Position numbers and translations under genes: made by a program. The notes under the pieces are model-generated. The model made no database searches. It was not told where the DNA came from and saw nothing but the letters and a program-made list of their open reading frames with translations. DNA of 64,000 nt, taken from the NCBI GenBank assembly GCA_051362555.1, contig CM120645.1:5890001-5954000 (forward strand). Reading direction: 5' to 3'. Position 1 is the first letter of the stretch. Every line of letters starts with the position of its first letter. Shown here one piece after another: positions 2,612 through 44,659 of this stretch. The DNA is from Lingula anatina. Taxonomy: Eukaryota > Animalia > Brachiopoda.

Positions 2612-2614
2612 TGT

Positions 2615-2645
<31 letters not shown>

Positions 2646-4469: not shown

Positions 4470-7400
4470 TTAAAACTTAACAAGCTGTGCCTTCTCCTGC
4501 ATGTGATCATCCTCACCAGCCTCATTTGATGAGAAAAGTAGGCAGTAACCATAAACACAAACTGCCTTCAAGGTTTGAAACACAAACAAGTCCTCTAGCA
4601 GTGCCACTCCTACCAGAGCAGCCCAGTTGTACACAGCGCTATCACTCAGCTCTCCGCCATACGCAATGGTGAGAAATACTGCCAAAGCCATGGAGGCACC
4701 CAGCAAAATGACTGCTGGATAGATCAAAAAGTGGGGCAACTTTCCGCTATCGTGTTTTCTGTTGACCATCATCTCCAGTGACTTCAGCTCAGTGTATGGC
4801 ACCTCATCTGATGGTTCTGGAACAGATTGTGGGGAAATGAATAAATGAATTCGGAAAGTATGTGAAAGTTTTACTTCAAATTGAAGCAGGCTAATATTAC
4901 CTCCCATACGACCATAATCACTGCTATGATTATAATGAGTAAGGGCAAGGAAGGTTATATTGAAACCAATGTTCTAAATATCTTCAAATTGTAAACTGTT
5001 TGGATACATATTCAAAAATGTATTATTTTTTATATGTTCATTCTTTTTAAAATTTAACTTTTTAAATTAACTGAACTGACGGACATGACACCAAACTGGA
5101 CAATTACCTTCCCAAATATTAACAGCTACAGTTTGTGGTGCAGTGGTGCAGTGCAGTGGCGTTCCTTCTTTAGCTGAATGTTTCAAAACATTATATAAAC
5201 TAGAATAAATTACTTGAAGTTTGGAAGTCTGGCAAAACAAATCTTTGCAAAATTAATTAAAAAATATAAAGATATTAAAAACTTCTGTATCAGACATTTG
5301 CACAAAATATGAAAATCTTGAAACTGCTTTGAAATGTTCACAAAATGCCAACTAGTTGTTGGTGCTACAATATGTTTTGCCACCTGACAATTACCTTTCT
5401 CTACATCCACTGCCACATCATGCTCAGATGTCTGCTTTGGTAGCTCAGCATTGTATTTTGTCTGGTTGATGTCTGAAATAAGGTTATTCTAAAATTGTAT
5501 AAAACAAATAAAGGAAAATGTGAGAACTTTTTTGTTTGAGCGTTACTACTCTATTCTTGAACATAAATAAAGCAGCAGAAAATCAAAATAAAAAAATGTT
5601 ACATCTGTTTTACACACATAAAAAAAGGATTAAAAATACATCCTCAGATAGACATTTCTACAGCATAATATAAAGGTAAACTTTTACATAAGTATATAAT
5701 TACCCGGGTGGAGAAAACTTGGGTTAAAGTGAGCAATGAGACTGTAAAAAGGTGAAACATCTGCATTTCTGTAGCTGGAAGTCTTCCCATCATGGGATTT
5801 TGGGTGATCTGCCTGCATCTTCTTTTGCATCTTTGAGTTTAGCCTAGGGTTGTTAGGAGGAGGAGCATAAGTGAAGAACTCAGAAGCAATGCAGTTGTTA
5901 TTCTCCCTAGAGACTTCTGGCATCTGGAGTATGATGCTGCTAATGGACAGTGCACTGGAGCTAGGAGTGCTGTTGTAGCTGGGTGTTTTCTGAAATGATA
6001 CATACCACAATATAGCCCATAAGTATACAGCACATAATGTCTTTTTATGTTCTTAGTATATGTGTTTATAAGCCAAAACAAATATCACTTTGTAATAAGT
6101 GATACAAGTGTGTGTTTTTAATCATAAGAAGGCAATGCACGTATGCCTCAAAGGCAATCCATGATATATACCTGTACAGGCACATACATGCATGCACAAA
6201 CAAAAATTAGAAAGAAATAATTAATACCCCTTTCCTGCTGTCCACATATCCCATGGCAACCATATCTTCCTTGACAACCAAATTTTCCTTGGCAACCATT
6301 TCTTCAATCTGTGCCATAGCCTGGTGTTCAACAGTTGCACGTGCCAAATCATAGCCCTTCTCAAAGTCATAAGCCACCTGTTTCATCATGGTCTCCACAC
6401 TTCCATGCACAACTTGTTGGAACCCATCACTGATTGTGCAACTGAAAAAATAAAGAAAGTGATTGATCTTTCTTCATTTTAACCAAGAAATGTTGTAATT
6501 AGTATTATTGGTAGAATAACACTCTGGCTACAATGAATAACTCCATTAATTAACACACTCAAAGCATGTATGTGTCACTTTATAAAAGCAAAATAATATG
6601 AAAGCATTTCAACAGTAAAACACAAAATAAGACAGATTTATGATGAAAACAGGTTTTTCAGTAGTCTTTAATCGAGTGCAGTCTAATACAAGTTGTCAGA
6701 ATCAGACATCACTATGAGCAAGACCTGTGATCAACTCCCAAAGCTGAACATTTTTATGAAATCAGGAGTCTTCAAAAAAAAAAAAAAAAAAGAAAAAAAG
6801 GCTCCTTACATGTCATCATACTGGGGCTCATCTTCCAGGCTCTGCAGCACAGTGGTGTCACCAGTGTCTTCTCTGTCATAGCACCTGATATTGTACATTG
6901 CTACATCATATATGCCATTCACAAGGAATGTTCCTATATTGACAAGGAGGCTGGAGAGGAAGATGCCTCTATCAAGCTGAATGACACCAACAGCACTGAG
7001 AAGGGTACTGGTAAGCAGCATGTTTGCAAACATGTAGTTCAAGGTGCTGTTAAACCACAGAAGGACAGGGGCCAACTTCAAGCTGGAACAGCGTGTCCAT
7101 CCATGACAGGACCACATGTACAGAAGGCAAGTTTGCAGTCCAAACCTGAAAAATATTAAATTTATATAAAATATCGAAGTAAAGAAGTACATACATGAAA
7201 ATTAAATACTACATGTACATTCCATGTTTAAGGAAAACTGTATACTGCATTAAGAAATCAGAATACATGTCATAATTATTATTATTTTTTATATTCTATG
7301 TGTTGATAACTTGCAAAAACAGTCATTTCAAAGTACATTATATGCTTATTTATTAATTGTGAGAAAGTCTCCAACTTTACCTGGAGTTCTTACATGACTC

Positions 7401-8628
7401 CAAAGTGGTGTATCCCACTGTGAGGCATCCATTGCTGCTGAAGTGAGATTCACAGCCAGATACTGTATCATATACTGTTATGTCCAGCATATTCCTTCAA
7501 TGAAAGAAAAATATATATTACAATTTTTTTTTTTTTTTTTTTTGCTCAAGTTTCTTTATTTACAACAAATATTTAACAATTGGTATTTGGAATAAATTGC
7601 TGCTTTTAAATATCTGTACTGAGATGCTAGCTTACACTTTTTCCATTCTGAATATATTAATATATCTAGATAACTTAACTCCATGAATATAGCTTTAACT
7701 AGGCACCCAAGGCATTCATAACACAAATCATATTTCAGAACATTGACAGAAATAATCTTCATAATTTGCTTAACTTTTTTTTTATAAATGTAGTACTATG
7801 ATGTAGTGATGTTTGTGATGTTGCAGTTTGTTCTTTAAATTACCATTGAGCTCCTGGTCTTCCACTGATGTTCACCACAACATTCTTCAGTTTTCCCAGA
7901 GACTCTAAGTTTAAAATAATAACAAAAAAGCATTTAGTATAATGTTAGCATGTTGTTTAGGAATAAAACAGGCATCAAATATGATAAAGTTGTAGTTTAA
8001 TTGTAAAAGTAAATTTAGTTTAACAAAACAAGACTAACAGCGCCTTGTTTTACAAACCTAAAAGGATTCTTGCACCAACACTCTCAAAATATGCTTTACT
8101 TTATAATAAATAAGCAACATGCATGGAGCTCTGTAAACATAATACTATATGTAATAATAATAATAGATCTATGTAATAAAGCTTCTAATAGAGATAAACA
8201 GTTAACTGTGACATGATGTTCTAGTAAAGACTGTACATGAAGAATTGATTGCAGTAAGTAAATGGTAATTAACTGCTAATAATATTGTTGAATCAATATT
8301 TGCAGGCAATGAAATCTATATGTGCTCCAAAAGTATTCAAGATGTTTACCTTTGGTATACAAAAGGAACCAGTTCTTCTGTCCTACCCCAAGGAAATTGT
8401 GCTTTTTCCCATGTTCATTCAGATTGTATTCAGGAGATACCCCCTGGTCTCCTTTCAACTGCAATCTGACTTTGGGCGTCTTTCCCGCTATTTAAAACAA
8501 CATACGCATTTCTATAGTTAGGAATAAATACAGTTAAGCAACGACTTCAATAATAATATACAAAGGCAAGACTTGTCATTGGCCTATATCTCTTTTTCTA
8601 TTTTTGTCTTTTTTTTATTATTGTTATC

Positions 8629-8675
<47 letters not shown>

Positions 8676-9601
8676 CTGAAGACAGTTAAACATTTTTATT
8701 TCACAAAATAATAACTAGTTTAAGCTTTTCAACAAGAATCAGAATCAATAACCTAGAAGATCTAAAATAGCATCACTCTTACCTCTTTTCAGACTATTTT
8801 GAACTGCTACCATGTATCTATAGTGATGTTCACCAGAATATTTGGGAACAACAATGATACCACTCTGCTTTCTCTGAAATGATAATGACCATTATACTTG
8901 TAAGGCAAAAGAAAAGAAAATAAAGGAAATGAAAAGTATGTCAAAATAAAACAATGGTGTTATGAAGTTGATTACAGTTGAAACAAAACAATTTTTAGTT
9001 CTTTGCCACAGTTGCTTATTTTATATTTTAAAAAAGTTAGTCTATTACAGAAATCCCTGAGAGAAAGCTATACTTTCATATGCATGCAGGCCAAACTTAT
9101 AGTTTTGTTTTAGTACCTTCTTCCACTTCAGCCATATAATAAAGCTCATGGTGACAAACATGAGTCCAGCAAAAGCATATATAAAGGCGTAAGTAAGTCT
9201 GTTGTTTTTCACAAACTTAGGAGGCATTTTCAAGGTATTAGCTAGCAAAGAAACAAAAGGATGGAGCTTAGAAAATGGAAAACAAGGAAGCAAATCAAGG
9301 GCAAGGAGAATTAATAAAAAGCGTGGTTATTTTAAATATATAGACTATTAAAAATAGTGAAAGTAGGGTATAATAAAAATGAGGCTCAGACTAAACAAAA
9401 CACAAAAAGTGGGTTTTTGACTATCAAAATACATGAAATAGTGACAAACCAAATAAAAAAATCACATTTTTTGCCAAAATGAATGGTAAAAAAACATAAA
9501 AGATGTAAAAGAGTTAAATATAATTTGATGATATTCTTACCTCCATGGAGAGGTTGCATGAGTAGCAACATCAACAGAACTTTGACCTTCAAGTTCTTCA
9601 T
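4470..9601 (-). CDS. Mini polycystin-1 (PKD1/REJ family)-like membrane protein, copy 1, 638 aa; exons 9601-9541, 9241-9117, 8873-8783, 8487-8350, 7904-7844, 7494-7381, 7145-6810, 6441-6228, 5989-5704, 5472-5395, 5173-5108, 4816-4470
   Basis: Twelve GT-AG exons join in one open frame (1917 nt). Signal-like MKNLKVKVLLMLLLMQPLHG; TM1 (NNRLTYAFIYAFAGLMFVTMSFIIWLKWKK); PLAT-like YRYMVAVQNSLKRAGKTPKVRLQLKGDQGVS..NWFLLYTKESLGKLKNVVV..GAQWNMLDITVYDTVSG; TM2-3 exon; long hydrophilic loop; TM4-5 (LPHFLIYPAVILLG..FLTIAYG..NWAALVGVALLEDLFVFQTLKAV). This matches the order of elements in the PKD1-family TM1-PLAT-TM2-5 region. Confidence 0.8.
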
Positions 9602-9749
9602 AACGGCAAAATTCTTTTTATATGTTCTCCCTGTATCAAATAATACGAAGCCGTGTATGACAAACACGTAAATTAAAACAGAAGTCGCGATTCAGCGAAT
9701 ACACGAGAAATTATCGATATCTCAAAAACTTTGGACGGAGTTGACTTAA

Positions 9750-9816
9750 ACTTCCGCCCAAATCTCACAAATGTCTGTTGCTAATTGACGTCACAGACAC
9801 AATCAGCTCACGTGAC
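9750..9816. promoter_or_regulatory. Putative promoter motif cluster upstream of the PKD1-like gene: GC-box-like TTCCGCCC, perfect CRE TGACGTCA (9786-9793), E-box TCACGTGA (9808-9815)
   Basis: The motifs are read directly and lie in a locally CpG-richer patch ~150-215 bp upstream of the ATG. The CRE is conserved in all four copies (also 24125, 33726, 44844). Function is inferred only. Confidence 0.45.
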
Positions 9817-10291: not shown

Positions 10292-10488
10292 TGAGGGGAG
10301 GTGAATACTGCTGCCCATATTTAACGTCATCTGGGAATTACACCAGAACGTTCTACTGTCCAGATTACTGCTGCTGTACATCTACCGATAGATATTGCTG
10401 CAATTCAATTAGCAGGAGACACTACTGGAGTTACTCTGACAGTGCGCTGTGTCCTTCCCCGACAGAAGGTATTTGCATTTGTCTCTGA
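10292..10488 (+). pseudogene. Orphan Shisa-like Cys-rich exon (exon 2 of the gene-B type); its promoter and signal-peptide exon are deleted
   Basis: VRGGEYCCPYLTSSGNYTRTFYCPDYCCCTSTDRYCC. About 2.3 kb present in units 2 and 3, including exon 1, is missing at ~10140. It also carries a G-to-C substitution (CCC). Confidence 0.75.
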
Positions 10489-18461: not shown

Positions 18462-21400
18462 TTAAAACTTAACAAACTGTGTTTTCTCCTGCCTGTGAGC
18501 ATCCTCACCAGCCTCATTTGATGAGAAAAGTAGGCAGTAACCATAAACACAAACTGCCTTCAAGGTTTGAAACACAAACAAGTCCTCTAGCAGTGCCACT
18601 CCTACCAGAGCAGCCCAGTTGTACACAGCGCTATCACTCAGCTCTCCGCCATACGCAATGGTGAGAAATACTGCCAAAGCCATGGAGACGCCCAGCAAAA
18701 TGACTGCTGGATAGATCAAAATGTGGGGCAACTTTCCGCTATCGTGTTTTCTGTTGACCATCATCTCCAGTGACTTCAGCTCAGTGTATGGCACCTCATC
18801 TGATGGTTCTGGAACAGATTGTGGGGAAATGAATAAATGAATTCGGAAAGTATGTGAAAGTTTTACTTCAAATTGAAGCAGGCTAATATTACCTCCCATA
18901 TGACCATAATCACTGCTATGATTATAATGAGTAAGGGCAAGGAAGGTTATATTGAAACCAATGTTCTAAATATATTCAAAATGTAAACTGTTTGGATACA
19001 TATTCAAAAATGTATTATTTTTTATATGTTCATTCTTTTTAAAATTTAACTTTTTAAATTAACTGAACTGACGGACATTACACCAAACTGGACAATTACC
19101 TTCCCAAATATTAACAGCTACAGTTTGTGGTGCAGTGGTGCAGTGCAGTGGCGTTCCTTCTTTAGCTGAATGTTTTAAAACATTATATAAACTAGAATAA
19201 ATTACTTGCAGTTTGGAAGTCTGGCAAAACAAATCTTTGCAAAATTAATTAAAAAATATAAAGATATTAAAAACTTCTGTATCAGACATTTGCACAAAAT
19301 ATGAAAATCTTGAAACTGCTTTGAAATGTTCACAAAATGCCAACTAGTTGTTGGTGCTACAATATGTTTTGCCACCTGACAATTACCTTTCTCTACATCC
19401 ACTGCCACATCATGCTCAGATGTCTGCTTTGGTAGCTCAGCATTGTATTTTGTCTGGTTGATGTCTGAAATAAGGTTATTCTAAAATTGTATAAAACAAA
19501 TAAAGGAAAATGTGAGAACTTTTTTGTTTGAGCGTTACTACTCTATACTTGAACATAAATAAAGCAGCAGAAAATGAAAATAAAAAAATGTTACATCTGT
19601 TTTACACACATAAAAAAAGGATTAAAAATACATCAACATCATCAGATAGACATTTCTACAGCATAATATAAAGGTAAACTTTTACATAAGTATATAATTA
19701 CCTGGGTGGAGAAAACTTGGGTTAAAGTGAGCAATGAGACTGTAAAAAGGTGAAACATCTGCATTTCTGTAGCTGAAAGTCTTCCCATCATGGGATTTTG
19801 GGTGATCTGCCTGCATCTTCTTTTGCATCTTTGAGTTTAGCCTAGGGTTGTTAGGAGGAGCATAAGTGAAGAACTCAGAAGCAATGCAGTTGTTATTCTC
19901 CCTAGAGACTTCTGGCATCTGGAGTATGATGCTGCTAATGGACAGTGCACTGGAACTGGGAGTGCTGTTGTAGCTGAGTGTTTTCTAAAATTTTGAAAAT
20001 CATCCAATAATCGATTCTGCTTACTGGTAAATTCAGTCAAAATAAACCAAAGACAGAAACATTTATTCTGACAGTGACTTGATGTTGCGTGATAATATCA
20101 CAATATTAATATAATGTCTTTTTATGTTCTTAGTTTATGTGCATGTGCTAATAAATCAAACCATGCAAATATCATAATGTCAAACGTTACAGAAATGATA
20201 CAAGTGTCTGTTTTTAATTACAAGAAGGCAATACATGTATGTCTCAAAGGCAATCCATGATATCTGTACAGGCACATACATGCATGCACAAACAAAAATT
20301 AGAAAGAAATAATTAATACCCCTTTCCTGCTGTCCATATCTCCCTCGGCAACCATATCTTCCTTGACAACCAAATTTTCATTGGCAACCATTTCTTCAAT
20401 CTGTGCCATAGCCTGGTGTTCAACAGTTGCACGTGCCAAATCATAGCCCTTCTCAAAGTCATAAGCCACCTGTTTCATCATGGTCTCCACACTTCCATGC
20501 ACAACTTGTTGGAACCCATCACTGATTGTGCAACTGAAAAAATAAAGAAAGTGATTGATCTTTCTTCATTTTAACCAAGAAATATTGTAAAGAATGAGTA
20601 TTATTGGTAGAATAACACTCTGGCTACAATGAATAACTCCATTAATTAACACACTCAAAGCATGTATGTGTCACTTTATAAAAGCAAAATAATATGAAAG
20701 CATTTCAACAGTAAAACACAAAATAAGACAGATTTATGATGAAAACAGGTTTTTAGTAGTCTTTAATGGGGTGGAGTCTAATACAAGTTGTCAGAATCAG
20801 ACATCACTATGAGCAACACATGTGATCAACTCCCAAAGCTGAACACAAATTTAACTTTATTCCAACATATTTATGAAATCAGGAGTCTTAAAAAAAAAGA
20901 CTCCTTACATGTCATCATACTGGGGCTCATCTTCCAGGCTCTGCAGCACAGTGGTGTCACCAGTGTCCTCTCTGTCATAGCACCTGATATTGTACATTGC
21001 TACATCATATATGCCATTCACAAGGAATGTTCCTATATTGACAAGGAGGCTGGAGAGGAAGATGCCTCTATCAAGCTGAATGACACCAACAGCACTGAGA
21101 AGGGTACTGGTAAGCAGCATGTTTGCAAACATGTAGTTCAAGGTGCTGTTAAACCACAGAAGGACAGGGGCCAACTTCAAGCTGGAACAGCGTGTCCATC
21201 CATGACAGGACCACATATACAGAAGGCAAGTTTGCAGCCTAAACCTGAAAAATATTAAATTTATATAAAATATCGAAGTACAGACATTGTACATGAAAAT
21301 TAAATACTACATGTACATTCCATGTTTAAGGAAAACTGTATACTGCATAAAGAAATCAGAATACATGTCATAATTATTATTATTTTTTATATTCTATGTG

Positions 21401-22987
21401 TTGATAACTTGCAAAAACAGTCATTTCAAAGAACATTACTAGTATATGCTTATTTATTAATTGTGAGAAAGTCTCCAACTTTACCTGGAGTTCTTACATG
21501 ACTCCAAAGTGGTGTATCCCACTGTGAGGCATCCATTGCTGCTGAAGTGAGATTCACAGCCAGATACTGTATCATATACTGTTATGTCCAGCATATTCCT
21601 TCAATGAAATAGAAATATATATTACAATTTTTTTTTTTTTTTGCCCAAGTTTCTTTAATAACCACAAATATTGAACAATTGGTATTTGGAATAAATTGCT
21701 GCTTCTAAATATCTGTACTGAGATGCTAGCTTACACTTTTTTCCATTCTGTATTACAGTATATATTAATATATCTAGATAACTCCATGAATATAGCTTTA
21801 ACTACAGAGGCACCCAAGGCATTCATAACACAAATCATATTTCAGAACACTGACAGAAATAATCTTCATGATTTGCATAACTTTTTTTATAAATGTAGTA
21901 CTATGATGTAGTGATGTTTGTGATGTTGCAGTTTGTTCTTTAAATTACCATTGAGCTCCTGGTCTTCCACTGATGTTTACCACAACATTCTTCAGTTTTC
22001 CCAGGGACTCTGAGTTTAAAATAATAATAACAAAAAACATTTAGTATAATGTTAGCATGTTGTTTGAGAATAAAACAGGCATCAAATATGATAAAGTTGT
22101 AGTTTAAGGGTGCATTCCCAGAGATTTAGATCGATCCAGAGATTTAGATTTAGATCAACCTAACTCCCTGGGGGTTCATGCTAAATTGCAGTCAGCCGAG
22201 TGCACACCATAGTTAATTACAATCTTACAGCTTTTAGTAGGCGTGACAGATGCTTAAGCCGGCTAAGCTGACAGTAATCTAGTGAGACTCCCCACAGGGA
22301 TAGATCGATCTAAAATCTATGGAAATGGGGTCTAATTGTAAAAGTAAATTCAGTTTAACAAAACAAGACCAACAGCACCTTGTTTTACAAACCTAAAAGG
22401 ATTCTTGCACTAACACTCTCAAAATATGCTTTTCTTTATAATAAATAAGCAACATGCATGGAGTTCTGTAAACATAATACTAATAATAACTATAATATAT
22501 GTAATAATAATAATAATGTTAGATCTATGTAATAAAGCTTCTAATAGAGATAAACAGTAAACTGTGACAAGGTGTTCTAGTAAAGACTGTACATGCTGAA
22601 TTGATTGCAGTAAGTAAATGGTAATTAACTGCTAATAATATTGTTGAATCAATATTTGCAGGCAATGAAATCTACATGTGCTCCAAAAATATTCAAGATG
22701 TTTACCTTTGGTATACAAAAGGAACCAGTTCTTCTGTCCTACCCCAAGGAAATTGTGCTTTTTCCCATGTTCATTCAGATTGTATTCAGGAGATACCCCC
22801 TGGTCTCCTTTCAACTGTAATCTGACTTTGGGCGTCTTTCCTGCTATTTAAAACAACATACACATTTCTGTAGTTAGGAATAAATACAGTTAAGCAACGA
22901 CTTCGATAATAATATACAAAGGCAAGACTTGTCATTGGCCTATATCTCTTTTTCTATTTTTGTTATTTTGTTTTTATTATTGTTATC

Positions 22988-23019
<32 letters not shown>

Positions 23020-23940
23020 CTGAAGACACTTAAACACTTTTATTTCACAAAATAATAACTAGTTTAAGCTTTTCAACAAGAATCAGAATCAATAACCTAG
23101 AAGATCTTAGCATCACTCTTACCTCTTTTCAGCCCATTTTGAACTGCTACCATGTATCTATAGTGATGTTCACCAGAATATTTGGGAACAACAACGATAC
23201 CACTCTGCTTTCTCTGAAATGATAATGACCATTATAATTATAAGGCAAAAGAAAAGAAAGTAAAGGAAATGAAAAGTATGTCAAAATAAAACAATGATGT
23301 TATGAAGTTGATTACAGTTGAAACAAAATAATTTTCAGTTCTTTGCCACAGTTGCTTATTTTATATTTTAAAAAAGTTTATCTATTACAGAAATTCCTAA
23401 GAGAAAGCTACACTTTCACATGCATGCAGGCCAAACTTAAAGTTTTGTTTTAGTACCTTCTTCCACTTCAGCCATATAATAAAGCTCATGGTGACAAACA
23501 TGAGTCCAACAAAAGCATATATAAAGGCGTAAGTAAGTCTGTTGTTTTTCACAAACTTAGGAGGCATTTTCAAGGTATTAGCTAGCAAAGAAACGAAAGG
23601 ATGGAGCTTAGAAAATGGAAAACAAGGAAGCAAATCAAGGGCAAGGAGAATTAATAAAAAGCGTGGTTATTTTAAATATAAAGACTATTAAAAATAGTGA
23701 AAGTAGGGTCTAATAAAAATGAGGCTCAAACTAAACAAAACACAAAGAGTGGGTTGTTGATTATTAAAATACATGAAATAGTGACAAACCAAATAAAAAA
23801 ATTACAATTTTGCTAAAATGAATGGTGAAAAAACATAAAAGATGCAAAAGAGTTCAATATAATTTGATGATATTCTTACCTCCATGGAGAGGTTGCAGGA
23901 GTAGCAACATCAACAGAACTTTGACCTTCAAGTTCTTCAT
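18462..23940 (-). CDS. Mini polycystin-1-like gene, copy 2 (12 coding exons, apparently intact)
   Basis: All 12 exons and splice sites of copy 1 are recognisable. Only substitutions and an in-frame 3-nt deletion (APPP to APP) were seen. Confidence 0.78.
22108..22332. mobile_element. PIF/Harbinger (Tourist)-like MITE in intron 4 of copy 2, TSD TAA
   Basis: Absent from the other three copies (empty site GTAGTTTAATTGTAAAAG). TAA flanks both sides; imperfect inverted ends. Related sequences occur at ~52130 and ~57168. Confidence 0.8.
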
Positions 23941-28441: not shown

Positions 28442-31400
28442 TTAAAACTTAACAAGCTCTGTTTTCTCCTGCCTGTGAGCATCCTCACCAGCCTCATTTG
28501 ATGAGAAAAGTAGGCAGTAACCATAAACACAAACTGCCTTCAAGGTTTGAAACACAAACAAGTCCTCTAGCAGTGCCACTCCTACCAGAGCAGCCCAGTT
28601 GTACACAGTGCTATCACTCAGCTCTCCGCCATACGCAATGGTGAGAAATACTGCCAAAGCCATGGAGACGCCCAGCAAAATGACTGCTGGATAGATCAAA
28701 ATGTGGGGCAACTTTCCGCTATCGTGTTTTCTGTTGACCATCATCTCCAGTGACTTCAGCTCAGTGTATGGCAGCTCATCTGACGGTTCTGGAACAGATT
28801 GTGGGGAAATGAATAAATGAATTCGGAAAGTATGTGAAAGTTTTACTTCAAATTGAAGCAGGCTAATATTACCTCCCATACGACCATAATCACTGCTATG
28901 ATTATAATGAGTAAGGGCAAGGAAGGTTATATTGAAACCAATGTTCTAAATATCTTCAAAATGTAAACTGTTTGGATACATATTCAAAAATGTATTATTT
29001 TTTATATGTTCATTCTTTTTAAAATTTAACTTTTTAAATTAACTGAACTGACGGACATGACACCAAACTGGACAATTACCTTCCCAAATATTAACAGCTA
29101 CAGTTTGTGGTGCAGTGGTGCAGTGCAGTGGCGTTCCTTCTTTAGCTGAATGTTTCAAAACATTATATAAACTAGAATAAATTACTTGAAGTTTGGAAGT
29201 CTGGCAAAACAAATCTTTGCAAAATTAATTAAAAAATATAAAGATATTAAAAACTTGAAACTGCTTTGAAATGTTCACAAAATGCCAACTAGTTGTTGGT
29301 GCTACAATATGTTTTGCCACCTGACAATTACCTTTCTCTACATCCACTGCCACATCATGCTCAGATGTCTGCTTTGGTAGCTCAGCATTGTATTTTGTCT
29401 GGTTGATGTCTGAAATAAGGTTATTCTAAAATTGTATAAAACAAATAAAGGAAAATGTGAGAACTTTTTTGTTTGAGCGTTACTACTCTATTCTTGAACA
29501 TAAATAAAGCAGCAGAAAATCAAATTAAAAAATGTTACATCTGTTTTACACACATAAAAAAAGGATTAAAAATACATCATCAGATAGACATTTCTACAGC
29601 ATAAAGGTAAACTTTTACATAAGTATATAATTACCTGGGTGGAGAAAACTTGGGTTAAAGTGAGCAATGAGACTGTAAAAAGGAGAAACATCTGCATTTC
29701 TGTAGCTGGAAGTCTTCCCATCATGGGATTTTGGGTGATCTGCCTGCATCTTCTTTTGCATCTTTGAGTTTAGCCTAGGGTTCTTAGGAGGAGCATAAGT
29801 GAAGAACTCAGAAGCAATGCAGTTGTTATTCTCCCTAGAGACTTCTGGCATCTGGAGTATGATGCTGCTAATGGACAGTGCACTGGAGCTGGGAGTGCTG
29901 TTGTAGCTGAGTGTTTTCTAAAATTTTGAAAATCATCCAATAATCGATTCTGCTGACTGGTAAATTCAGTCAAAATAAACCAAAGACAGAAACATTTACT
30001 CTGACAGTGACTTGATGTTGCGCTATAATACCACAATATTAATATAATGTCTTTTTATGTTCTTAGTATATGTGCATGTGCTTATCAAACCAAATATCAT
30101 AATGTCAAATGTTACAGAAATGATACAAGTGTCTGTTTTTAATTACAAGAAGGCAATACAAGTATATGTCTCAAAGGCAATCCACGATATCTGTACAGGC
30201 ACATACATGCATGCACAAACAAAAATTAGAAAGAAATAATTAATACCCCTTTCCTGCTGTCCATATCTCCCTCGGCAACCATATCTTCCTTGACAACCAA
30301 ATTTTCATTGGCAACCATTTCTTCAATCTGTGCCATAGCCTGGTGTTCAACAGTTGCACGTGCCAAATCATAGCCCTTCTCAAAGTCATAAGCCACCTGT
30401 TTCATCATGGTCTCCACACTTCCATGCACAACTTGTTGGAACCCATCACTGATTGTGCAACTGAAAAAATAAAGAAAGTGATTGATCTTTCTTCATTTTA
30501 ACCAAGAAATATTGTAAAGAATGAGTATTATTGGTAGAATAACACTCTGGCTACAATGAATAACTCCATTAATTAACACACTCAAAGCATGTATGTGTCA
30601 CTTTATAAAAGCAAAATAATATGAAAGCATTTCAACAGTAAAACACAAAATAAGACAGATTTATGATGAAAACAGGTTTTTAGTAGTCTTTAATGGGGTG
30701 GAGTCTAATACAAGTTGTCAGAATCAGACATCACTATGAGCAACACATGTGATCAACTCCCAAAGCTGAACACAAATTTAACTTTATTCCAACATATTTA
30801 TGAAATCAGGAGTCTTAAAAAAAAAGGCTCCTTACATGTCATCATACTGGGGCTCATCTTCCAGGCTCTGCAGCACAGTGGTGTCACCAGTGTCCTCTCT
30901 GTCATAGCACCTGATATTGTACATTGCTACATCATATATGCCATTCACAAGGAATGTTCCTATATTGACAAGGAGGCTGGAGAGGAAGATGCCTCTATCA
31001 AGCTGAATGACACCAACAGCACTGAGAAGGGTACTGGTAAGCAGCATGTTTGCAAACATGTAGTTCAAGGTGCTGTTAAACCACAGAAGGACAGGGGCCA
31101 ACTTCAAGCTGGAACAGCGTGTCCATCCATGACAGGACCACATATACAGAAGGCAAGTTTGCAGTCCAAACCTGAAAAATATTAAATTTATATAAAATAT
31201 CGAAGTACAGAAGTACATACATGAAAATTAAATACTACATGTACATTCCATGTTTAAGGAAACTTGTATACTGCATTAAGAAATCAGAATACATGTCATT
31301 ATTATTATTATTTTTTATATTCTATGTGTTGATAACTTGCAAAAACAGTCATTTCAAAGTACATTATATGCTTATTTATTAATTGTGAGAAAGTCTCCAA

Positions 31401-33534
31401 CTTTACCTGGAGTTCTTACATGACTCCAAAGTGGTGTATCCCACTGTGAGGCATCCATTGCTGCTGAAGTGAGATTCACAGCCAGATACTGTATCATATA
31501 CTGTTATGTCCAGCATATTCCTTCAATGAAAGAAAATTGCTGCTTTTAAATATCTGTACTGAGATGCTAGCTTACACTTTTTCCATTCTGAATATATTAA
31601 TATATCTAGATAACTTAACTCCATGAATATAGCTTTAACTAGGCACCCAAGGCATTCATAACACAAATCATATTTCAGAACATTGACAGAAATAATCTTC
31701 ATAATTTGCTTAACTTTTTTTTATAAATGTAGTACTATGATGTAGTGATGTTTGTGATGTTGCAGTTTGTTCTTTAAATTACCATTGAGCTCCTGGTCTT
31801 CCACTGATGTTCACCACAACATTCTTCAGTTTTCCCAGAGACTCTAAGTTTAAAATAATAACAAAAAAACATTTAGTATAATGTTAGCATGTTGTTTAGG
31901 AATAAAACAGGCATCAAATATGATAAAGTTGTAGTTTAATTGTAAAAGTAAATTTAGTTTAACAAAACAAGACCAACAGCGCCTTGTTTTACAAACCTAA
32001 AAGGATTCTTGCACCAACACTCTCAAAATATGCTTTACTTTATAATAAATAAGCAACATGCATGGAGCTCTGTAAACATAATACTATATGTAATAATAAT
32101 AATAATAATAATAGATCTATGTAATAAAGCTTCTAATAGAGATAAACAGTTAACTGTGACATGATGTTCTAGTAAAGAATGTACATGCTGAATTGATTGC
32201 AGTAAGTAAATGGTACTTAACTGCTAATAATATTGTTGAATCAATATTTGCAGGCAATGAAATCTATATGTGCTCCAAAAGTATTCAAGATGTTTACCTT
32301 TGGTATACAAAAGGAACCAGTTCTTCTGTCCTACCCCAAGGAAATTGTGCTTTTTCCCATGTTCATTCAGATTGTATTCAGGAGATACCCCCTGGTCTCC
32401 TTTCAACTGTAATCTGACTTTGGGCATCTTTCCTGCTATTTAAAACAACATACGCATTTCTATAGTTAGGAATAAATACAGTTAAGCAACGACTTCAATA
32501 ATAATATACAAAGGCAAGACTTGTCATTGGCCTATATCTCTTTTTCTATTTTTGTCATTTTTTCTATTATTGTTATCATCATTATCATTATCATTATTAT
32601 CATTATTATTATTATTATCTGAAGACACTTGTTTATCTGAAGAAACTAGTTTAAGCTTTTCAACAAGAATCAGAATCAATAACCTAGAAGATCTAAAATA
32701 ACATCACTCTTACCTCTTTTCAGCCCATTTTGAACTGCTACCATGTATCTATAGTGATGTTCACCAGAATATTTGGGAACAACAATGATACCACTCTGCT
32801 TTCTCTGAAATGATAATGACCATTATAATCATAAGGCAAAAGAAAATGAAATAAAGGAAATGAAAAGTATGTCAAAATAAAACAATGATGTTATGAAGTT
32901 GATAACAGTTGAAACAAAATAATTTTCAGTTCTTTGCCACAGTTGCTTATTTTATATTTTAAAAAAGTTAGTCTATTACAGAAATTCCTGAGAGAAAGCT
33001 ATACTTTCATATGCATGCAGGCCAAACTTATAGTTTTGTTTTAGTACCTTCTTCCACTTCAGCCATATAATAAAGCTCATGGTGACAAACATGAGTCCAG
33101 CAAAAGCATATATAAAGGCGTAAGTAAGTCTGTTGTTTTTCACAAACTTAGGAGGCATTTTCAAGGTATTAGCTAGCAAAGAAACGAAAGGATGGAGCTT
33201 AGAAAATGGAAAACAAGGAAGCAAATCAAGGGCAAGGAGAATTAATAAAAAGCGTGGTTATTTTTAATAAATAAGACTATTAAAAATAGTGAAAGTAGGG
33301 TCTAATAAAAATGAGGCTCAAACTAAACAAAACACAAAAAGTGGGATTTTGACTATCAAAATACATGAAATAGTGACAAACCAAATAAAAAAATCACAAT
33401 TTTTGCTAAAATGAATGGTAAAAAAAAAACAAAAGATGCAAAAGAGTTAAATATAATTTGATGATATTCTTACCTCCATGGAGAGGTTGCAGGAGTAGCA
33501 ACATCAACAGAACTTTGACCTTCAAGTTCCTCAT
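28442..33534 (-). CDS. Mini polycystin-1-like gene, copy 3 (apparently intact)
   Basis: All exons are present in frame. Copy-specific deletions are confined to introns (~29250, ~31535, ~32630). Confidence 0.78.
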
Positions 33535-39506: not shown

Positions 39507-42500
39507 TTAAAACTTAACAAGCTGTGTTTTCTCCTGCCTGTGAGCATCCTCACCAGCCTCATTTGATGAGAAAAGTAGGCAGTAACCATAAACACAAACT
39601 GCCTTCAAGGTTTGAAACACAAACAAGTCCTCTAGCAGTGCCACTCCTACCAGAGCAGCCCAGTTGTACACAGCGCTATCACTCAGCTCTCCGCCATACG
39701 CAATGGTGAGAAATACTGCCAAAGCCATGGAGACGCCTAGCAAAATGACTGCTGGATAGATCAGAATGTGGGGCAACTTTCCGCTATCGTGTTTTCTGTT
39801 GACCATCATCTCCAGTGACTTCAGCTCAGTGTATGGCACCTCATCTGATGGTTCTGGAACAGATTGTGGGGAAATGAATGAATGAATTCGGAAAGTATGT
39901 GAAAGTTTTACTTCAAATTGAAGCAGGCTAATATTACCTCCCATAAGACCATAATCACTGCTATAATTATAATGAGTAAGGGCAAGGAAGGTTATATTGA
40001 AACCAATGTTCTAAATATCTTCAAAATGTAAACTGTTTGGATACATATTCAAAAATGTATTATTTTTTTATATGTTCATTCTTTTTAAAATTTAACTTTT
40101 TAAATTAACTGAACTGACGGACATGACACCAAACTGGACAATTACCTTCCCAAATATTAACTGCTACTGTAACAGTATCTGGTGCAGTGGCATTCTGTAG
40201 CGTTCCTTCTTTAGCTGAATGTTTCAAAACATTATATAAACTAGAATGAATGACTTGAAGTTTGGAAGTCTGGCCAAACGAATCTTTGTAAAATTAATTA
40301 AAAAAAATAAAGATATTAAAAACTTCTGTATCAGACATTTGTAAAATATATGAAAATCTTGAAACTGCTTTGAAATGTTCACAAAATGCCAACTAGTTGT
40401 TGGTGCTACAATATGTTTTTCCACCTGATAATTACGTACCTTTCTCTACATCCACTGCCACATCATGCTCAGATGTCTGCTTTGGTAGCTCATCATTGTA
40501 TTTTGTCTGGTTGATGTCTGAAATAAGGTTATTCTAAAATTGTATAAAACAAATAAAGGAAAATGTGAGAACCTTTTTGTTCGAGCATTATTACTCTATT
40601 CTTGAACATAAATTAAGAACCAGAAAATCAAAATAAAAAAATGTTACATCTATTTTACACTATAAAAAAGGATTAAAAATACATCCTCAGATAGACATTT
40701 CTACAGCATAATACATATGCAACTTTTGTATATGTATATAATTACCTGGGTGGAGAAAACTTGGGTTAAAGTGAGCAATGAGACTGTAAAAAGATGAAAC
40801 ATCTGCATTTCTGTAGCTGGAGGTCTTTCCATCATGGGATTTTGGGTGCTCTGCTTGCATCCCCATTTGCATCTTTGAGTTTAGCCTAGGGTTGTTAGGA
40901 GGAGGAGCATATGTGAAGAACTCAGAAGCAATGCAGTTGTTATTCTCCCTAGAGACTTCTGGCATCTGGAGTATGATGCTGCTAATGGACAGTGCACTGG
41001 AGCTGGGAGTGCTGTTGTAGCTGGGTGTTTTCTGAAATGATACATACCACAATATAGCCCATAAGTATACAGCACATAATGTCTTTTTATGTTCTTAGTA
41101 TATCTGTTTATAAGCCAAAACAAATATCACTTTGTAATAAGTGATACAAGTGTGTGTTTTTAATCATAAGAAGGCAATGCACGTATGCCTCAAAGGCAGT
41201 CCATGATATATATCTGTACAGGCACATACATACATGCATGCACAAACAAAAATTAGAAAGAAATAATTAATACCCCTTTCCTGCTGTCCACATATCCCAT
41301 GGCAACCATTTCTTCCTTGACAACCAAATTGTCCTTGGCAACCATTTCTTCAATCTGTGCCATAGCCTGGTGTTCAACAGTTGCACGTGCCAAATCATAG
41401 CCCTTCTCAAAGTCATAAGCCACCTGTTTCATCATGGTCTCCACACTTCCATGCACAACTTGTTGAAACCCATCACTGATTGTGCAACTGAAAAAATAAA
41501 GAAAGTGATTGGTCTTTCTTCATTTTAACCAAGAAATATTGTAAAGAATGTGTATTATTGGAAGAATAACACTCTGGCTACAATGAATAACTCCATTAAT
41601 TACCGTAACACACTCAAAGCATATATTTGTCACTTAATAAAAGCAAAATAATTATAATATGAAACCATTTCAACAGTAAAACACAAAATTAAACAGATTT
41701 ATGATGAAAACAGGTTTTTAGTAGTCTTTAACGTGGTGCAGTCTAATACAAGTTGTCAAAATCAGACATCACTATGAGCAAGACATGTGATCAACTCCCA
41801 AAGCTGAACACAAATTTAACTTTATTCCAACATATTTATGAAATGAGGAGTCTTAAAAAAAAAGAGAAAAAAAAGGCTCCTTACATGTCATCATACTGAG
41901 GCTCATCTTCCAGGCTCTGCAGCACAGTGGTGTCACCAGTGTCTTCTCTGTCATAGCACCTGATATTGTACATTGCTACATCATATATGCCATTCACAAG
42001 GAATGTTCCTATATTGACAAGGAGGCTGGAGAGGAAGATGCCTCTATCAAGCTGAATGACACCAACAGCACTGAGAAGGGTACTGGTAAGCAGCATGTTT
42101 GCAAACATGTAGTTCAAGGTGCTGTTAAACCACAGAAGGACAGGGGCCAGCTTCAAGCTGGAACAGCGTGTCCATCCATGACAGGACCACATAAACAGAA
42201 GGCAAGTTTGCAGTCCAAACCTGAAAAATATTAAATTTATATAAAATATCGAAGTACAGAAGTACATACATGAAAATTAAATACTACATGTACATTCCAT
42301 GTTTAAGGAAAACTGTATACTGCATTAAGAAATCAGAATTCAATACATGTCATAATTATTATTATCTTTTATATTCTATGTGTTGATAACTTGCAAAAAC
42401 AGTCATTTCAAAGTACATTATATGCTTATTTATTCATTGTGAGAAAGTCTCCAACTTTACCTGGAGTTCTTACATGACTCCAAAGTGGTGTTTCCCACTG

Positions 42501-43712
42501 TGAGGCATCCATTGCTGCTGAAGTGAGATTCACAGCCAGATACTGTATCATATACTGTTATGTCCAGCATATTCCTTCAATGAAAGAAAAATATATAATA
42601 CAATTTTTTTCTTTTTTGCTCAAGTTTCTTTATTAACCACAAATATTTAACAATTGGTATTTGGAATAAATTGCCGCTTCTAAATATCTGTACTGAGATG
42701 CTAGCTTACACTTTTTCCATTCTGTATATATTAATATATCTAGATAACTCCATGAATATAGCTTTAACTACAGAGGCACCCAAGGCATTCATAACACAAT
42801 TCATATTTCAGAACATTGACAGAAATAATCTTCATGATTTGCATAACTTTTTTTATAAATGTAGTACTATGATGTAGTGATGTTTGTGATGTTGCAGTTT
42901 GTTCTTTAAATTACCATTGAGCTCCTGGTCTTCCACTGATGTTCACCACAACATTCTTCAGTTTTCCCAGAGACTCTGAGTTAAAAATAATAATAAAAAA
43001 AAAAAAAATTTAATGTTAGCATGTTGTTTGAGAATAAAACAGGCATCAAATATGATAAAGTTGTAGTTTAATTGTAAAAGTAAATTTAGTTTAACAAAAC
43101 AAGACCAACAGCATCTTGTTTTACAAACCTAAAAGGATTCTTGCACTAACACTCTCAAAATATGCTTAACTTTATAATAAATAGGCAACATGCAAGGAGT
43201 TCTGTAAACATAATACTATATGTAATAATAATGTTAGATTTATGTAATAAAGCTTCTAATAGAGATAAAGAGTAAACTGTGACTAGACGTGATGTTCTGG
43301 TGAAGACTGTACACGCTGAATTGATTGCAATAAGTAAACGGTAATTAACTGCTAATAATATTGTTGAATCAATATTTGAAGCCAATGAAATTTATATGTG
43401 CTCCGAAAATATTCAAGATGTTTACCTTTGGTATACAAAAGGAACCAGTTCTTCTGTCCTACCCCAAGGAAATTGTGCTTTTTCCCATGTTCATTCAGAT
43501 TGTATTCAGGAGATACCCCCTGGTCTCCTTTCAACTGCAATCTGACTTTGGGTGTCTTTCCTGCTATTTAAAACAACATACGCATTTCTATAGTTAGGAA
43601 AAAATACAGTTAAGCAACAACTTCAATAATAATATACAAAGGCAAGGCTCGTCATTGGCCTATATCTCTTTTTTTATTTTTGTCATTATTTTTATTATTG
43701 TTATAATTATTA

Positions 43713-43746
<34 letters not shown>

Positions 43747-44659
43747 CTGAAGACACTTAAACACTTTTATTTCACAAAATAACTAGTTTGAGCTTTTCAA
43801 CAAGAATCAGAATCAATAACCTAGAAGATCTTAGCATCACTCTTACCTCTTTTCAGCCCATTTTGAACTGCTACCATATATCTATAGTGATGTTCACCAG
43901 AATATTTGGGAACAACAATGATACCACTCTGCTTTCTCTGAAATGATAATGACCATTATAATTATAAGGCAAAAGAAAATAAAATAAAGGGAATGAAAAG
44001 TATGTCAAAATAAAACAATGATGTTATGAAATTGATAACAGTGGAAACAAAATAATTTCAGTTCTTTGCCACAGTTGCTTATTTTATATTTTAAAAAAAA
44101 TTAGTCTATCACAGAAATTCCTAAGAGAAAGCTATACTTTCATATGCATGCAGGCCAAAATTAAAGTTTTGTTTTAGTACCTTCTTCCACTTGAGCCATA
44201 TAATAAAGCTCATGGTGACAAACATGAGTCCAACAAAAGCATATATAAAGGCGTAAGTAAGTCTGTTGTTTATCACAAACTTTGGAGGCATTTTCCAGGT
44301 ATAAGCTAGCAAAGAAATGAAAGGATGGAACTTAGAAAATGGAAAGCAAGGAAGCAAATCAAGGGCAAAAAGAATTATTAAAAAGCGTGGTTATTTTAAA
44401 TATATAGACTATTGAAAATAGTGAAAGTAGGGTCTAATAAAAATGAGGCTGAAACAAAACACAAAAAGTGGGTTGTTGACTATCAAAATACATGAAATAG
44501 TGACAACCCAAATAAAAAATTACAATTTTTGCTAAAATGAATGGTGAAAAAACATAAAAGATGCAAAAGAGTTAAATATAATTTGATGCTATTCTTACCT
44601 CCATGGAGAGGTTGCATGAGTAGCAACATCAACAGAACTTTGATCTTCAAGTTCTTCAT
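39507..44659 (-). CDS. Mini polycystin-1-like gene, copy 4 (apparently intact; divergent exon 11 and stalk)
   Basis: Twelve exons in frame. Exon 11 reads AKEGTLQNATAPDTVTVAVNIWE (3 nt longer); the stalk reads AYTWKMPPKFVINNR. Confidence 0.78.

What the first reader, a model, noticed from the sequence alone, without database searches (positions are those of the whole stretch)
4470..9601. Stand-alone 'mini polycystin-1': signal peptide + TM1-PLAT-TM2-5, with no ectodomain and no channel domain
Seen: 12 exons splice into a 638-aa frame that starts with a signal-like peptide, reaches TM1 after ~15 residues, has a PLAT-like domain and four more hydrophobic segments, and stops ~20 aa after TM5. The unrelated BTB-ZF gene ends 2.5 kb away, and in copies 2-4 the next duplication unit follows, so no channel exons are visible. 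Known: PKD1/PKD1L/REJ proteins have a large REJ+GAIN/GPS ectodomain and 11 TMs, made of a TM1-PLAT-TM2-5 N-terminal membrane domain plus an S1-S6 TRP-like fold. Inference: this gene encodes only that N-terminal membrane domain as a free-standing protein, an architecture I do not recognise as described. It could modulate PKD2-type channels or signal by itself.
Basis: partly seen in the sequence, partly recalled or inferred. Interest (0 to 1): 0.85.

Follow-up and report, generated by a model that had tools for sequence, protein, structure and literature searches.

The report
Mini polycystin-1 lacking ectodomain and channel
Four intact tandem copies of a gene, very likely from the brachiopod Lingula, encode only the five-helix, PLAT-bearing middle module of polycystin-1-like proteins, with neither the giant outer domain nor the ion-channel half, and this module likely acts on its own as a lipid-anchored membrane scaffold, which would let one study a part of the kidney-disease protein whose separate job is unclear.

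Summary
Observation confirmed. Twelve GT-AG exons (minus strand, 9601-4470) give a 638-aa open frame: predicted signal peptide, 16-aa stub, TM1, PLAT, TM2-3, ~260-aa loop, TM4-5, short tail. Four tandem copies are all open (pN/pS 0.38). A profile of canonical PKD1-like TM1-5 modules hits it at both ends; the folded TM2-5 part ranks human polycystin-1 first of 48,161 chains (Z 8.9, modest). No GAIN, REJ or channel exon was found, and each of copies 1-3 has another copy 4.5-8.9 kb upstream. It belongs to a Lingula family of 14 uncharacterised RefSeq models, including ~30%-identical paralogues that also stop just after TM5, so the truncation is old. The family is weakly expressed and spliced; most junction reads come from paralogues outside the window. 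Caveats: transcript ends are not pinned, and two RefSeq models skip exon 2 (TM1). Channel-less forms that keep a GPS are already in print (fish partial pkd1l3); the doubly truncated form was not found in nine literature searches. Likely a lipid-anchored scaffold, not a channel subunit. New variant of a known kind; interest 0.55.

The parts
9541..9601 (-). Copy 1 exon 1 (coding part): start codon and predicted signal peptide, aa 1-20
   Evidence: same start Met in RefSeq P0004 and P0048, 90% identical to P0048; RNA depth stops at the donor
9602..9790 (-). Likely 5' leader; holds the in-frame AG at 9632-9631 and an in-frame stop at 9694-9692
   Evidence: low read depth (1-1.7) over 9585-9790 in X1 and 9649-9776 in X3; start of transcription not pinned
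9786..9814 (.). Promoter-like motifs (CRE-like 8-mer at 9786, E-box at 9809) in the ~360 bp upstream block shared by all four copies
   Evidence: the motif names are recalled, function untested; the E-box is altered in copy 4
9117..9241 (-). Exon 2: 16-aa outer stub plus TM1 (aa 21-62); the variable exon of the family
   Evidence: 39% identical to paralogue P0048 against 90-97% for exons 1, 3 and 4; read depth in X1 ends at both borders; skipped in RefSeq P0001 and P0032
8783..8873 (-). Exon 3: basic juxtamembrane stretch and start of PLAT (aa 63-92)
   Evidence: junction 8487/8783 in 8 reads from 3 of 4 runs
8350..8487 (-). Exon 4: PLAT (aa 93-138)
7844..7904 (-). Exon 5: PLAT (aa 139-158)
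7381..7494 (-). Exon 6: end of PLAT (aa 159-196)
6810..7145 (-). Exon 7: shortened post-PLAT linker, TM2, TM3 (aa 197-308)
6228..6441 (-). Exon 8: predicted long helix of the cytosolic TM3-TM4 loop (aa 309-380)
5704..5989 (-). Exon 9: low-confidence, likely disordered loop (aa 381-475); a paralogue has an in-frame 34-aa deletion here
5395..5472 (-). Exon 10: loop (aa 476-501)
5108..5173 (-). Exon 11: loop (aa 502-523)
   Evidence: junction 4816/5108 in 4 reads of X1
4470..4816 (-). Exon 12: TM4, TM5, ~20-aa tail and stop (aa 524-638)
   Evidence: 31.7 bits against a best of 4.4 in 500 shuffles; same stop in RefSeq P0001, P0002, P0032
4161..4469 (-). Likely 3' UTR with an AATAAA 304 nt after the stop (not kept in copies 2-4, which have ATTAAA variants)
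   Evidence: depth in bin 4204-4670 and none in 3737-4203 in 4 of 4 runs
18462..23940 (-). Copy 2, 12 exons, 637 aa, open
28442..33534 (-). Copy 3, 12 exons, 637 aa, open
39507..44659 (-). Copy 4, 12 exons, 639 aa, open; the most diverged copy

Best explanation
The gene encodes the TM1-PLAT-TM2-5 module of a PKD1-like protein alone, and this predicted five-pass membrane protein likely works as a lipid-anchored scaffold rather than as a channel subunit or a self-cleaving receptor. Steps: (1) shown: the 12-exon frame, its homology to PKD1-like TM1-5, and the lack of any detectable GAIN, REJ or channel sequence in the window; (2) predicted: the signal peptide and the basic stretch after TM1 set the N-terminus outside and PLAT inside, as in PC1, leaving only a 16-residue stub and two short loops outside; (3) inferred from PC1, whose PLAT binds phosphatidylserine, PI4P and beta-arrestin and steers trafficking: the PLAT domain reads anionic lipids of the inner leaflet and places the protein in a particular membrane patch; (4) inferred: the TM2-5 bundle holds a long, mostly disordered cytosolic loop (260 aa here, over 1000 aa in distant paralogues) that gathers cytosolic partners there; (5) inferred: paralogues differ most in the stub-plus-TM1 exon and in loop length, which would vary the membrane partner or location. 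Origin (inferred): an old loss of the channel half in the Lingula line, replacement and then loss of the ectodomain, then recent tandem duplication. Confidence in the architecture is about 0.85; the number below is for the mechanism.
For: Frame open in 4 of 4 copies; 31.5 synonymous against 44.5 non-synonymous changes on 406 and 1502 sites, ratio 0.38, binomial p 5.5e-5; PLAT 0.11-0.28 and TM2-3 0-0.28; exon indels keep the frame while introns carry 30-46 gaps per pair. Profile from 6 canonical PKD1-like modules, none from Lingula: 53 bits over aa 42-185 and 26.7 bits over aa 542-631. Single-sequence search with paralogue P0006 ranks human PC1 first in the PDB, in two stretches (E 1.5e-5). Model of P0001: PLAT fold (Z 15) and PC1 8z6b_A aligned over model 21-549 to residues 3117-3610 (Z 9.4, 238 aligned, rmsd 15.1); the TM2-5 model ranks 8z6b_A first of 48,161 chains (Z 8.9, rmsd 4.2, 137 aligned, residues 3250-3610). 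Distant paralogues P0005, P0006 and P0015 (about 30% identity) also end about 10 residues after TM5, and none of 9 Lingula models scanned has GPS, REJ or channel Pfam hits. Upstream of copies 1-3 the next copy's stop lies 8.9, 4.5 and 6.0 kb away. Stranded, spliced reads fall on exons. PLAT function in PC1: PMC9672506 and 10.1101/2025.05.21.655326 (passages). The channel half suffices for channel function without TM1-5 (PMC8357825); G-protein signalling needs stalk, TOP and C-tail (PMC9171645).
Against: No binding, localisation or partner was tested. This PLAT is degenerate: below the Pfam cut-off, with the conserved W-H-D-N-x-G and N-x-W-L motifs of canonical members altered, and without the Arg-x-Ser site that by my count matches the PKA site S3164 of PC1 (numbering recalled), so the beta-arrestin switch of PC1 is probably not kept. 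The profile does not cover aa 186-541 (TM2-3 are placed by alignment through paralogues). Both folds used alignments rich in canonical PKD1-like rows, so the PC1 match is not independent; pTM 0.44 and 0.39; Foldseek found nothing for the TM part and Z 8.9 is under the bar of about 13 given for helical bundles. Expression is very low, absent over the gene in X7 and X5, and 8 of 8 reads at the exon 3-4 junction come with a base at 8454 that none of the four copies has. TM4-5 plus tail and the N-terminal 62 aa show no clear constraint on their own (few changes). RefSeq P0001, P0032, P0005 and P0009 lack TM1.
Confidence: 0.5

Rival explanations
1. Auxiliary or split subunit: the TM1-5 module docks in trans on a PKD2 or PKD1-like TRP fold, as TM1-5 sits beside it in PC1, and tunes channel traffic or gating.
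For: The TM2-5 bundle keeps the PC1-like arrangement and is constrained; PC1 is cut naturally into a P100 product (title only, in the reference list of PMC9672506; that P100 is the last six helices is recalled).
Against: The TRP fold and C-tail are absent; the PKD1L3 channel half forms a working channel with PKD2L1 without TM1-5 (PMC8357825). No channel-only partner gene lies in the window; the rest of the genome could not be searched.
Confidence: 0.17
2. Recognition receptor: a fast-evolving, tissue-restricted family (gamete, self/non-self or immune recognition) in which the variable stub and TM1 read a partner and the loop signals.
For: Exon 2 is 39% identical between paralogues whose flanking exons are 90-97% identical; 14 RefSeq models and a tandem array; expression differs between samples; long paralogues P0006 and P0011 carry a ~320-aa Ser/Thr/Pro-rich ectodomain; sea-urchin REJ relatives act on sperm (PMC1934368).
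Against: A 16-residue stub is a small binding surface; the four copies in the window are nearly the same in exon 2; only one divergent exon 2 was seen; the tissues of the runs are unknown.
Confidence: 0.13
3. The main product skips exon 2 and starts at the ATG at the end of exon 1, giving a four-pass protein with a cytosolic N-terminal PLAT and no signal peptide or TM1.
For: Joining exon 1 to exon 3 gives exactly the N-terminus of RefSeq P0001 and P0032; P0005 and P0009 also lack TM1.
Against: The first ATG would then open a 34-codon frame that overlaps the second start; exon 2 is intact with both splice sites in 4 of 4 copies, read depth in X1 ends at its borders, and P0048, P0006 and P0011 have signal peptide plus TM1. 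No exon 1-3 junction was listed, but junctions under 3 reads are not listed.
Confidence: 0.1
4. The model is a fragment of a longer canonical PKD1-like transcript whose ectodomain or channel exons lie outside the window or are too diverged to detect.
For: In-frame acceptor at 9631 and a donor-like GTGAG after TM5 at about 4516, each in 4 of 4 copies; same-strand reads further upstream (9841-10160); the GAIN profile found only 5 of 23 held-out 40-aa pieces and the channel profile 16 of 28.
Against: Copies 1-3 have another copy upstream and copies 2-4 have one downstream; copy 1 faces an opposite-strand BTB-ZF gene; independent RefSeq models start and stop at the same places, and distant paralogues stop after TM5; reads cover both sides of 9631.
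Confidence: 0.06
5. Decaying remnants of a broken PKD1-like gene, amplified by chance with neighbouring repeats.
For: Very low expression; repeats and insertions in the array; fish partial pkd1l3 was read as a gene being lost (PMC5318412).
Against: pN/pS 0.38 (p 5.5e-5), no frameshift or stop in 4 of 4 copies, and the same end point in paralogues only 30% identical.
Confidence: 0.04

Closest known systems
Polycystin-1 / PKD1-like (TRPP1) N-terminal membrane domain, TM1-TM5 with PLAT (human PC1, PDB 6A70, 8Z6B)
   Same: Order and spacing of TM1, PLAT, TM2-3, long loop, TM4-5; sequence motifs around TM4-5; predicted fold.
   Different: No REJ, PKD repeats, GAIN/GPS or stalk; no S1-S6, TOP domain, pore, G-protein motif or coiled coil; shortened post-PLAT linker; degenerate PLAT.
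Channel-less 'partial pkd1l3' of zebrafish (1083 aa), gar, pufferfish and stickleback (PMC5318412), and similar amphibian proteins found here (P0047 Pelobates 1123 aa, P0036 Pleurodeles 701 aa)
   Same: No channel domain; the amphibian proteins end about 35 aa after TM5.
   Different: They keep a GPS/GAIN domain and often a C-type lectin; they group with vertebrate PKD1L2/L3-like rows, apart from the Lingula rows, so the loss is likely independent.
Sea-urchin SpREJ1, 2, 8, 9, 10 (PMC1934368)
   Same: PKD1-family members that lack the channel half.
   Different: The opposite cut: they keep REJ (and mostly GPS) and have 0-2 membrane helices; this gene keeps five helices and no REJ.
Uncharacterised Lingula anatina RefSeq proteins (LOC106177301, LOC106174266, LOC106155029, LOC106155800, LOC106163543, LOC106172920 and 8 more)
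   Same: Same family; 9 models close to the window's gene and 5 at about 30% identity.
   Different: All are named 'uncharacterized'; no single model holds the full 638-aa form; the distant group has a Ser/Thr/Pro-rich ectodomain and a loop of over 1000 aa.

Membership tests
PKD1-like (TRPP1) proteins | PLAT domain directly after the first membrane helix | tested here: met
   Pfam PLAT E 4.5e-4 (just under cut-off); fold Z 15.4, rmsd 1.9, 115 residues; profile covers TM1 into PLAT
PKD1-like (TRPP1) proteins | TM2-TM5 bundle homologous to the PC1 N-terminal membrane domain | tested here: met
   TM4-5 31.7 bits against 4.4 best of 500 shuffles; TM2-3 by alignment through paralogues; 8z6b_A first of 48,161, Z 8.9 (modest and alignment-dependent)
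PKD1-like (TRPP1) proteins | GAIN domain with GPS site before TM1 | tested here: not met
   Only 16 residues lie between the predicted signal peptide and TM1; no GAIN hit in 2816 window frames (profile power 5 of 23); stub does not score above shuffles on a stalk profile
PKD1-like (TRPP1) proteins | REJ module | tested here: not met
   No room in the frame; no REJ-profile hit under E 0.8 in the window; no REJ Pfam hit in 9 of 9 Lingula models scanned
PKD1-like (TRPP1) proteins | S1-S6 TRP fold with TOP domain (11 TM in all) | tested here: not met
   Stop about 20 aa after TM5 in 4 of 4 copies and in 3 RefSeq models read; best channel-profile E in the window 0.12-0.13, control 16 of 28
PKD1-like (TRPP1) proteins | C-tail with G-protein motif or coiled coil; assembly with PKD2-type subunits | not testable with these tools
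   The C-tail that follows S6 is absent by sequence; binding to PKD2 was not tested and no Lingula PKD2 sequence was in hand
Channel-less partial pkd1l3 of fishes and amphibians | GPS plus PLAT, no channel domain | tested here: not met
   Channel absent in both, but GPS absent here; separate place in the tree
Secreted-pathway five-pass membrane protein | Cleaved signal peptide and N-out topology | tested here: inconclusive
   Judged from sequence and hydropathy only; SignalP and DeepTMHMM not available

The most novel reading that the evidence does not exclude
The TM1-PLAT-TM2-5 module is an autonomous receptor fold that has been freed from the polycystin channel more than once (brachiopods; fishes and amphibians). 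In Lingula it has become a multigene recognition family in which a swappable stub-plus-TM1 exon sets specificity and the cytosolic loop signals with no channel, GPS or G-protein tail.
Probability: 0.15. Interest if true: 0.82.

Novelty: new variant of a known kind. Interest (0 to 1): 0.55.

Why it matters
In the papers read here, PC1 functions map to its ectodomain, stalk, TOP/pore and C-tail, and the channel half works without TM1-5; apart from PLAT-driven trafficking no job for the TM1-5 bundle was seen. A natural, selected, 638-aa protein made of that module alone is a small handle for asking what it does: fold, lipid binding, oligomer state and partners. It also argues that the channel-less 'partial pkd1l3' genes of fishes, read as genes being lost, may be working genes. 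Limits: found only in Lingula so far, low expression, no functional data.

Tried and rejected
No whole genome is held, so other copies, canonical Lingula PKD1-like genes and a channel-only partner could not be searched. No RNA holder was listed by the index; nine raw-read runs came by species label, seven of which were laid (X1-X7; X8 and X9 were not). X5 gave 0 reads on 8241-10160, no test. Pfam on 10 single exon pieces gave no PLAT or PKD hit; phmmer of P0001 against the PDB gave nothing under E 1. The profile of alignment A2 hits PC1 at 1e-53 but holds canonical rows, so it is circular and is not counted. Foldseek of the TM2-5 model: no match under E 0.001; Foldseek and its second look on the full model listed PLAT proteins only, not PC1. 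Idea that the 16-aa stub is an exposed PC1-like stalk: rejected, 32-297 of 500 shuffles scored as high for 5 of 5 stubs. Search for the same build outside Lingula: 28 representatives, 5 hits with A2, all Lingula, 63 short proteins with a scallop module: by profile coordinates none showed signal peptide + TM1-PLAT-TM2-5 + stop; most run into S1 or look like single-exon pieces (21 of the 63 were read in full). The nearest, P0050 (Tegillarca, 611 aa), starts in the stalk with no signal peptide and may be a split model; not checked. These searches are word-limited, so absence is weak. ESM Atlas gave PKD1L2/L3-named PLAT clusters (0.92, 513 aa) whose sequences cannot be read and a lead under 0.9 for P0048. 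Earlier findings: nothing in 3 look-ups. No complex prediction was run, since no binding is claimed.


Full report
1. Observation. Reading the minus strand I placed 12 exons between 9601 and 4470; all 11 introns are GT-AG and the joined frame is 638 aa with no internal stop. A self-comparison of the window shows four tandem copies at 90-97% DNA identity; mapping each exon gives open frames of 638, 637, 637 and 639 aa with every splice site kept. Hydrophobic segments lie at aa 40-58, 234-252, 257-275, 554-572 and 600-618. The first 20 residues look like a signal peptide by eye (basic start, short hydrophobic core); no predictor was available. Sixteen residues separate it from TM1, and a basic stretch follows TM1, as expected if PLAT is cytosolic.

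2. Source and independent models. No genome is held. Exon 12 finds 3 proteins among 482 candidates, all 'uncharacterized' RefSeq proteins of Lingula anatina, the best 93% identical; the window is therefore very likely from this brachiopod. P0001 and P0032 match exons 3-12 and the same stop; P0048 matches exons 1-4 with the same start Met; P0004 has exon 1 joined to exon 5. In all, 14 Lingula models belong to the family: 9 close and 5 distant; some may be haplotype duplicates.

3. Homology to PKD1. P0001 hits Pfam PLAT at E 4.5e-4, 21.3 bits, under the cut-off of 23. A profile built from the TM1-5 region of 6 canonical, non-Lingula PKD1-like proteins matches copy 1 at aa 42-185 (53 bits) and 542-631 (26.7 bits); exon 12 alone scores 31.7 bits against a best of 4.4 in 500 shuffles. 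The profile does not cover TM2-3; these align co-linearly through the distant paralogues. Paralogues P0006 and P0011, searched alone, rank human PC1 first in the PDB (E 1.5e-5 in two stretches, and 9e-6). An AlphaFold2 model of P0001 (54 rows, pLDDT 60.6, pTM 0.44) has a confident PLAT sandwich (Z 15.4 to 5-lipoxygenase) and four helices; PC1 chain 8z6b_A aligns over model 21-549 to residues 3117-3610 (Z 9.4, rmsd 15.1). A model of the TM2-5 part (pTM 0.39) ranks 8z6b_A first of 48,161 chains (Z 8.9, rmsd 4.2, 137 residues, 3250-3610; next 7.7); Foldseek found nothing for it. The Z is modest for a helical bundle and the alignments held canonical rows, so the fold match backs up, but does not add independently to, the sequence evidence.

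4. Are the ends real? Profiles for GAIN, REJ and the channel half find nothing under E 0.1 in 2816 six-frame pieces of the window, while the TM1-5 profile finds exons 3, 4 and 12. Controls with held-out 40-aa pieces recovered 16 of 28 for the channel and 5 of 23 for GAIN, so the GAIN negative is weak alone. Layout is stronger: upstream of copies 1-3 the next copy's stop is 8.9, 4.5 and 6.0 kb away, and those gaps hold a Shisa-like exon, a LINE fragment and an inverted-repeat element; the 19 kb above copy 4 hold two opposite-strand Shisa-like genes; copy 1 faces the BTB-ZF gene, whose reads reach about 3736. The best evidence is depth in time: P0005 (1341 aa), P0006 (1764 aa) and P0015, about 30% identical to P0001, also end about 10 residues after TM5, and P0006 and P0011 have a signal-like start and a ~320-aa Ser/Thr/Pro-rich ectodomain with no GPS or REJ hit. 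In a tree of 35 PLAT-TM3 stretches the 6 Lingula rows form one side of a branch (100/100) with a long-branch warning; the root was not tested. Two open doors remain: the in-frame AG at 9632-9631 and a donor-like site at about 4516, each in 4 of 4 copies.

5. RNA. Seven of nine listed runs were laid, about 6-25% of each. At 90% likeness X1 has depth 0.05-1.5 in 11 of 12 bins over 4204-9807, all in the orientation of a minus-strand RNA; X4 has 3 bins, X6 2, X7 none although it covers the BTB gene; 4 of 4 runs are empty at 3737-4203. The exon 11-12 junction appears in 4 reads. Two other joints match the deletion and the different exon 10 region of paralogue P0002. At finer scale (27 reads in all from X1, X2, X3; none from X5) depth lies on exons 1-4 and is zero in 11 intron bins (two short repeats were skipped); the exon 3-4 junction is in 8 reads from 3 runs, but these come with a base at 8454 found in 0 of 4 window copies, so they are from a paralogue or another allele. 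In X1 the bin means at the borders of exons 1 and 2 (0.62, 0.67, 0.69) equal what 1-2 reads stopping at the splice sites would give; this is my inference from means, not a listed junction. Depth runs on from exon 1 across 9631 to about 9790 in X1 and over 9649-9776 in X3, which fits an unspliced leader with an in-frame stop at 9694. Against a clean picture: same-strand reads at 9841-10160, four with loose ends that by eye resemble the upstream sequence of copy 2, and about 130 bases in the opposite orientation at 9073-9200. So the family is transcribed and spliced at a low level; the ends rest on a handful of reads.

6. Exon 2. It is 39% identical to the same exon of P0048, whose exons 1, 3 and 4 are 90-97% identical. 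RefSeq P0001 and P0032 skip it: exon 1 joined to exon 3 gives exactly their N-terminus from a second ATG, while the first ATG would then give 34 codons. A TM1-less form may therefore exist; its share is unknown.

7. Selection. Among the four copies, 31.5 synonymous and 44.5 non-synonymous changes on 406 and 1502 sites give a ratio of 0.38 (binomial p 5.5e-5); PLAT 0.11-0.28, TM2-3 0-0.28, loop 0.26-0.60, TM4-5 plus tail 0.15-1.07 on few changes. Exons differ at 0.9-2.7% and introns at 2.3-5.0%; exon indels keep the frame. Gene conversion between copies was not modelled.

8. Mechanism. What PC1 uses for channel function (S1-S6; the PKD1L3 half works with PKD2L1 alone, PMC8357825, passages) and for G-protein signalling (stalk, TOP, pore loop, C-tail, PMC9171645, passages) is missing, and the stub does not score as a stalk. 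What remains is PLAT, which in PC1 binds phosphatidylserine, PI4P and beta-arrestin and controls trafficking (PMC9672506 and 10.1101/2025.05.21.655326, passages), a constrained helix bundle, and a long loop that is mostly low-confidence in both models with one long helix. I therefore commit to a lipid-anchored scaffold (0.5), all functional steps inferred. The PLAT is degenerate and lacks the site that by my count matches S3164 (numbering recalled). Rivals: auxiliary subunit in trans (0.17), recognition receptor (0.13), TM1-less main product (0.10), fragment of a longer gene (0.06), decay (0.04).

9. What is known. Fishes have a channel-less 'partial pkd1l3' with lectin, GPS and PLAT (PMC5318412, passages); frog and newt proteins of that build appeared here and group apart from Lingula. 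Sea-urchin SpREJ1, 2, 8, 9 and 10 keep the ectodomain and lose most helices (PMC1934368, parts 1-2 of 4). Abalone and planarian surveys describe PKD1-like proteins with the channel part (PMC12980990, PMC11448475, passages). Nine searches of the held library (listings and abstract starts only, except the papers named) showed no description of a form lacking both ends or of this Lingula family; subscription journals are mostly not held, and the supplements of PMC5318412 and PMC12980990, which list pkd/TRPP sequences, were not read and could bear on this. Outside Lingula no protein with signal peptide + TM1-PLAT-TM2-5 + stop was seen among 28, 5 and 63 hits; these searches are limited.

10. Verdict. 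Real gene family, intact and under purifying selection; works like the PC1 N-terminal membrane domain at most, and fails the GPS, REJ and channel tests for a canonical PKD1-like protein. New variant of a known kind. Interest 0.55: a specialist would find the double truncation odd and useful, but half of it has precedent, its range so far is one genus, and function is untested.

Noticed in passing
window 48781-51786 (+) and 60352-64000 (+): Two Shisa-like genes with five tandem Cys-rich exons each (Pfam Shisa_N E 1e-9 to 1e-11 on 3 of these exons tested), a membrane-helix exon (about 50700-50800; 63080-63190) and, for the first, a Pro-rich exon at 51381-51758. Several Shisa_N repeats in one gene may be unusual (recalled, not checked).
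   Followed up: partly
window 10291-10467, about 26882-27058, about 37954-38130 (+): One Shisa_N exon rides in the duplication unit upstream of copies 1-3, head to head with the mini-PKD1 gene; the surrounding 24.2-27.1 kb block matches 57.4-60.6 kb. Run X7 has reads there with a loose end at 10290.
   Followed up: partly
window 10811-17414: 6.6-kb element with terminal inverted repeats of about 250-350 bp and a 6-bp target duplication, inserted between copies 1 and 2; holds a 146-bp tandem array at 14377-15530; no long ORF of a transposase type seen.
   Followed up: partly
window 33823-35245 (+): LINE reverse-transcriptase fragment in two frames (RVT_1 E 1.8e-27) inserted about 410 bp upstream of the copy 3 start codon.
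   Followed up: partly
window 1-3736 (+): Expressed, spliced BTB + C2H2 zinc-finger gene (joints 189/402 and 531/833; large exon 833-1980) whose 3' region converges on copy 1.
   Followed up: partly
proteins P0025, P0045, P0047, P0036, P0018: Amphibians appear to have a channel-less GAIN-TM1-PLAT-TM2-5 gene (frog 1123 aa, newt 701 aa, both ending about 35 aa after TM5); Pelobates cultripes models P0025/P0045 carry two GPS-TM1-PLAT modules in a row, perhaps that gene fused in annotation to a full PKD1L3. This suggests the fish 'partial pkd1l3' is a conserved gene rather than one being lost.
   Followed up: partly
window 5873-6230 and 5130-5711: Reads with an in-frame 102-nt deletion in exon 9 and a different, shorter exon 10 region match paralogue P0002, so loop length varies among expressed paralogues.
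   Followed up: yes
window 53372-54972: Inverted repeat of about 600 bp at 83% identity, probably another mobile element.
   Followed up: no
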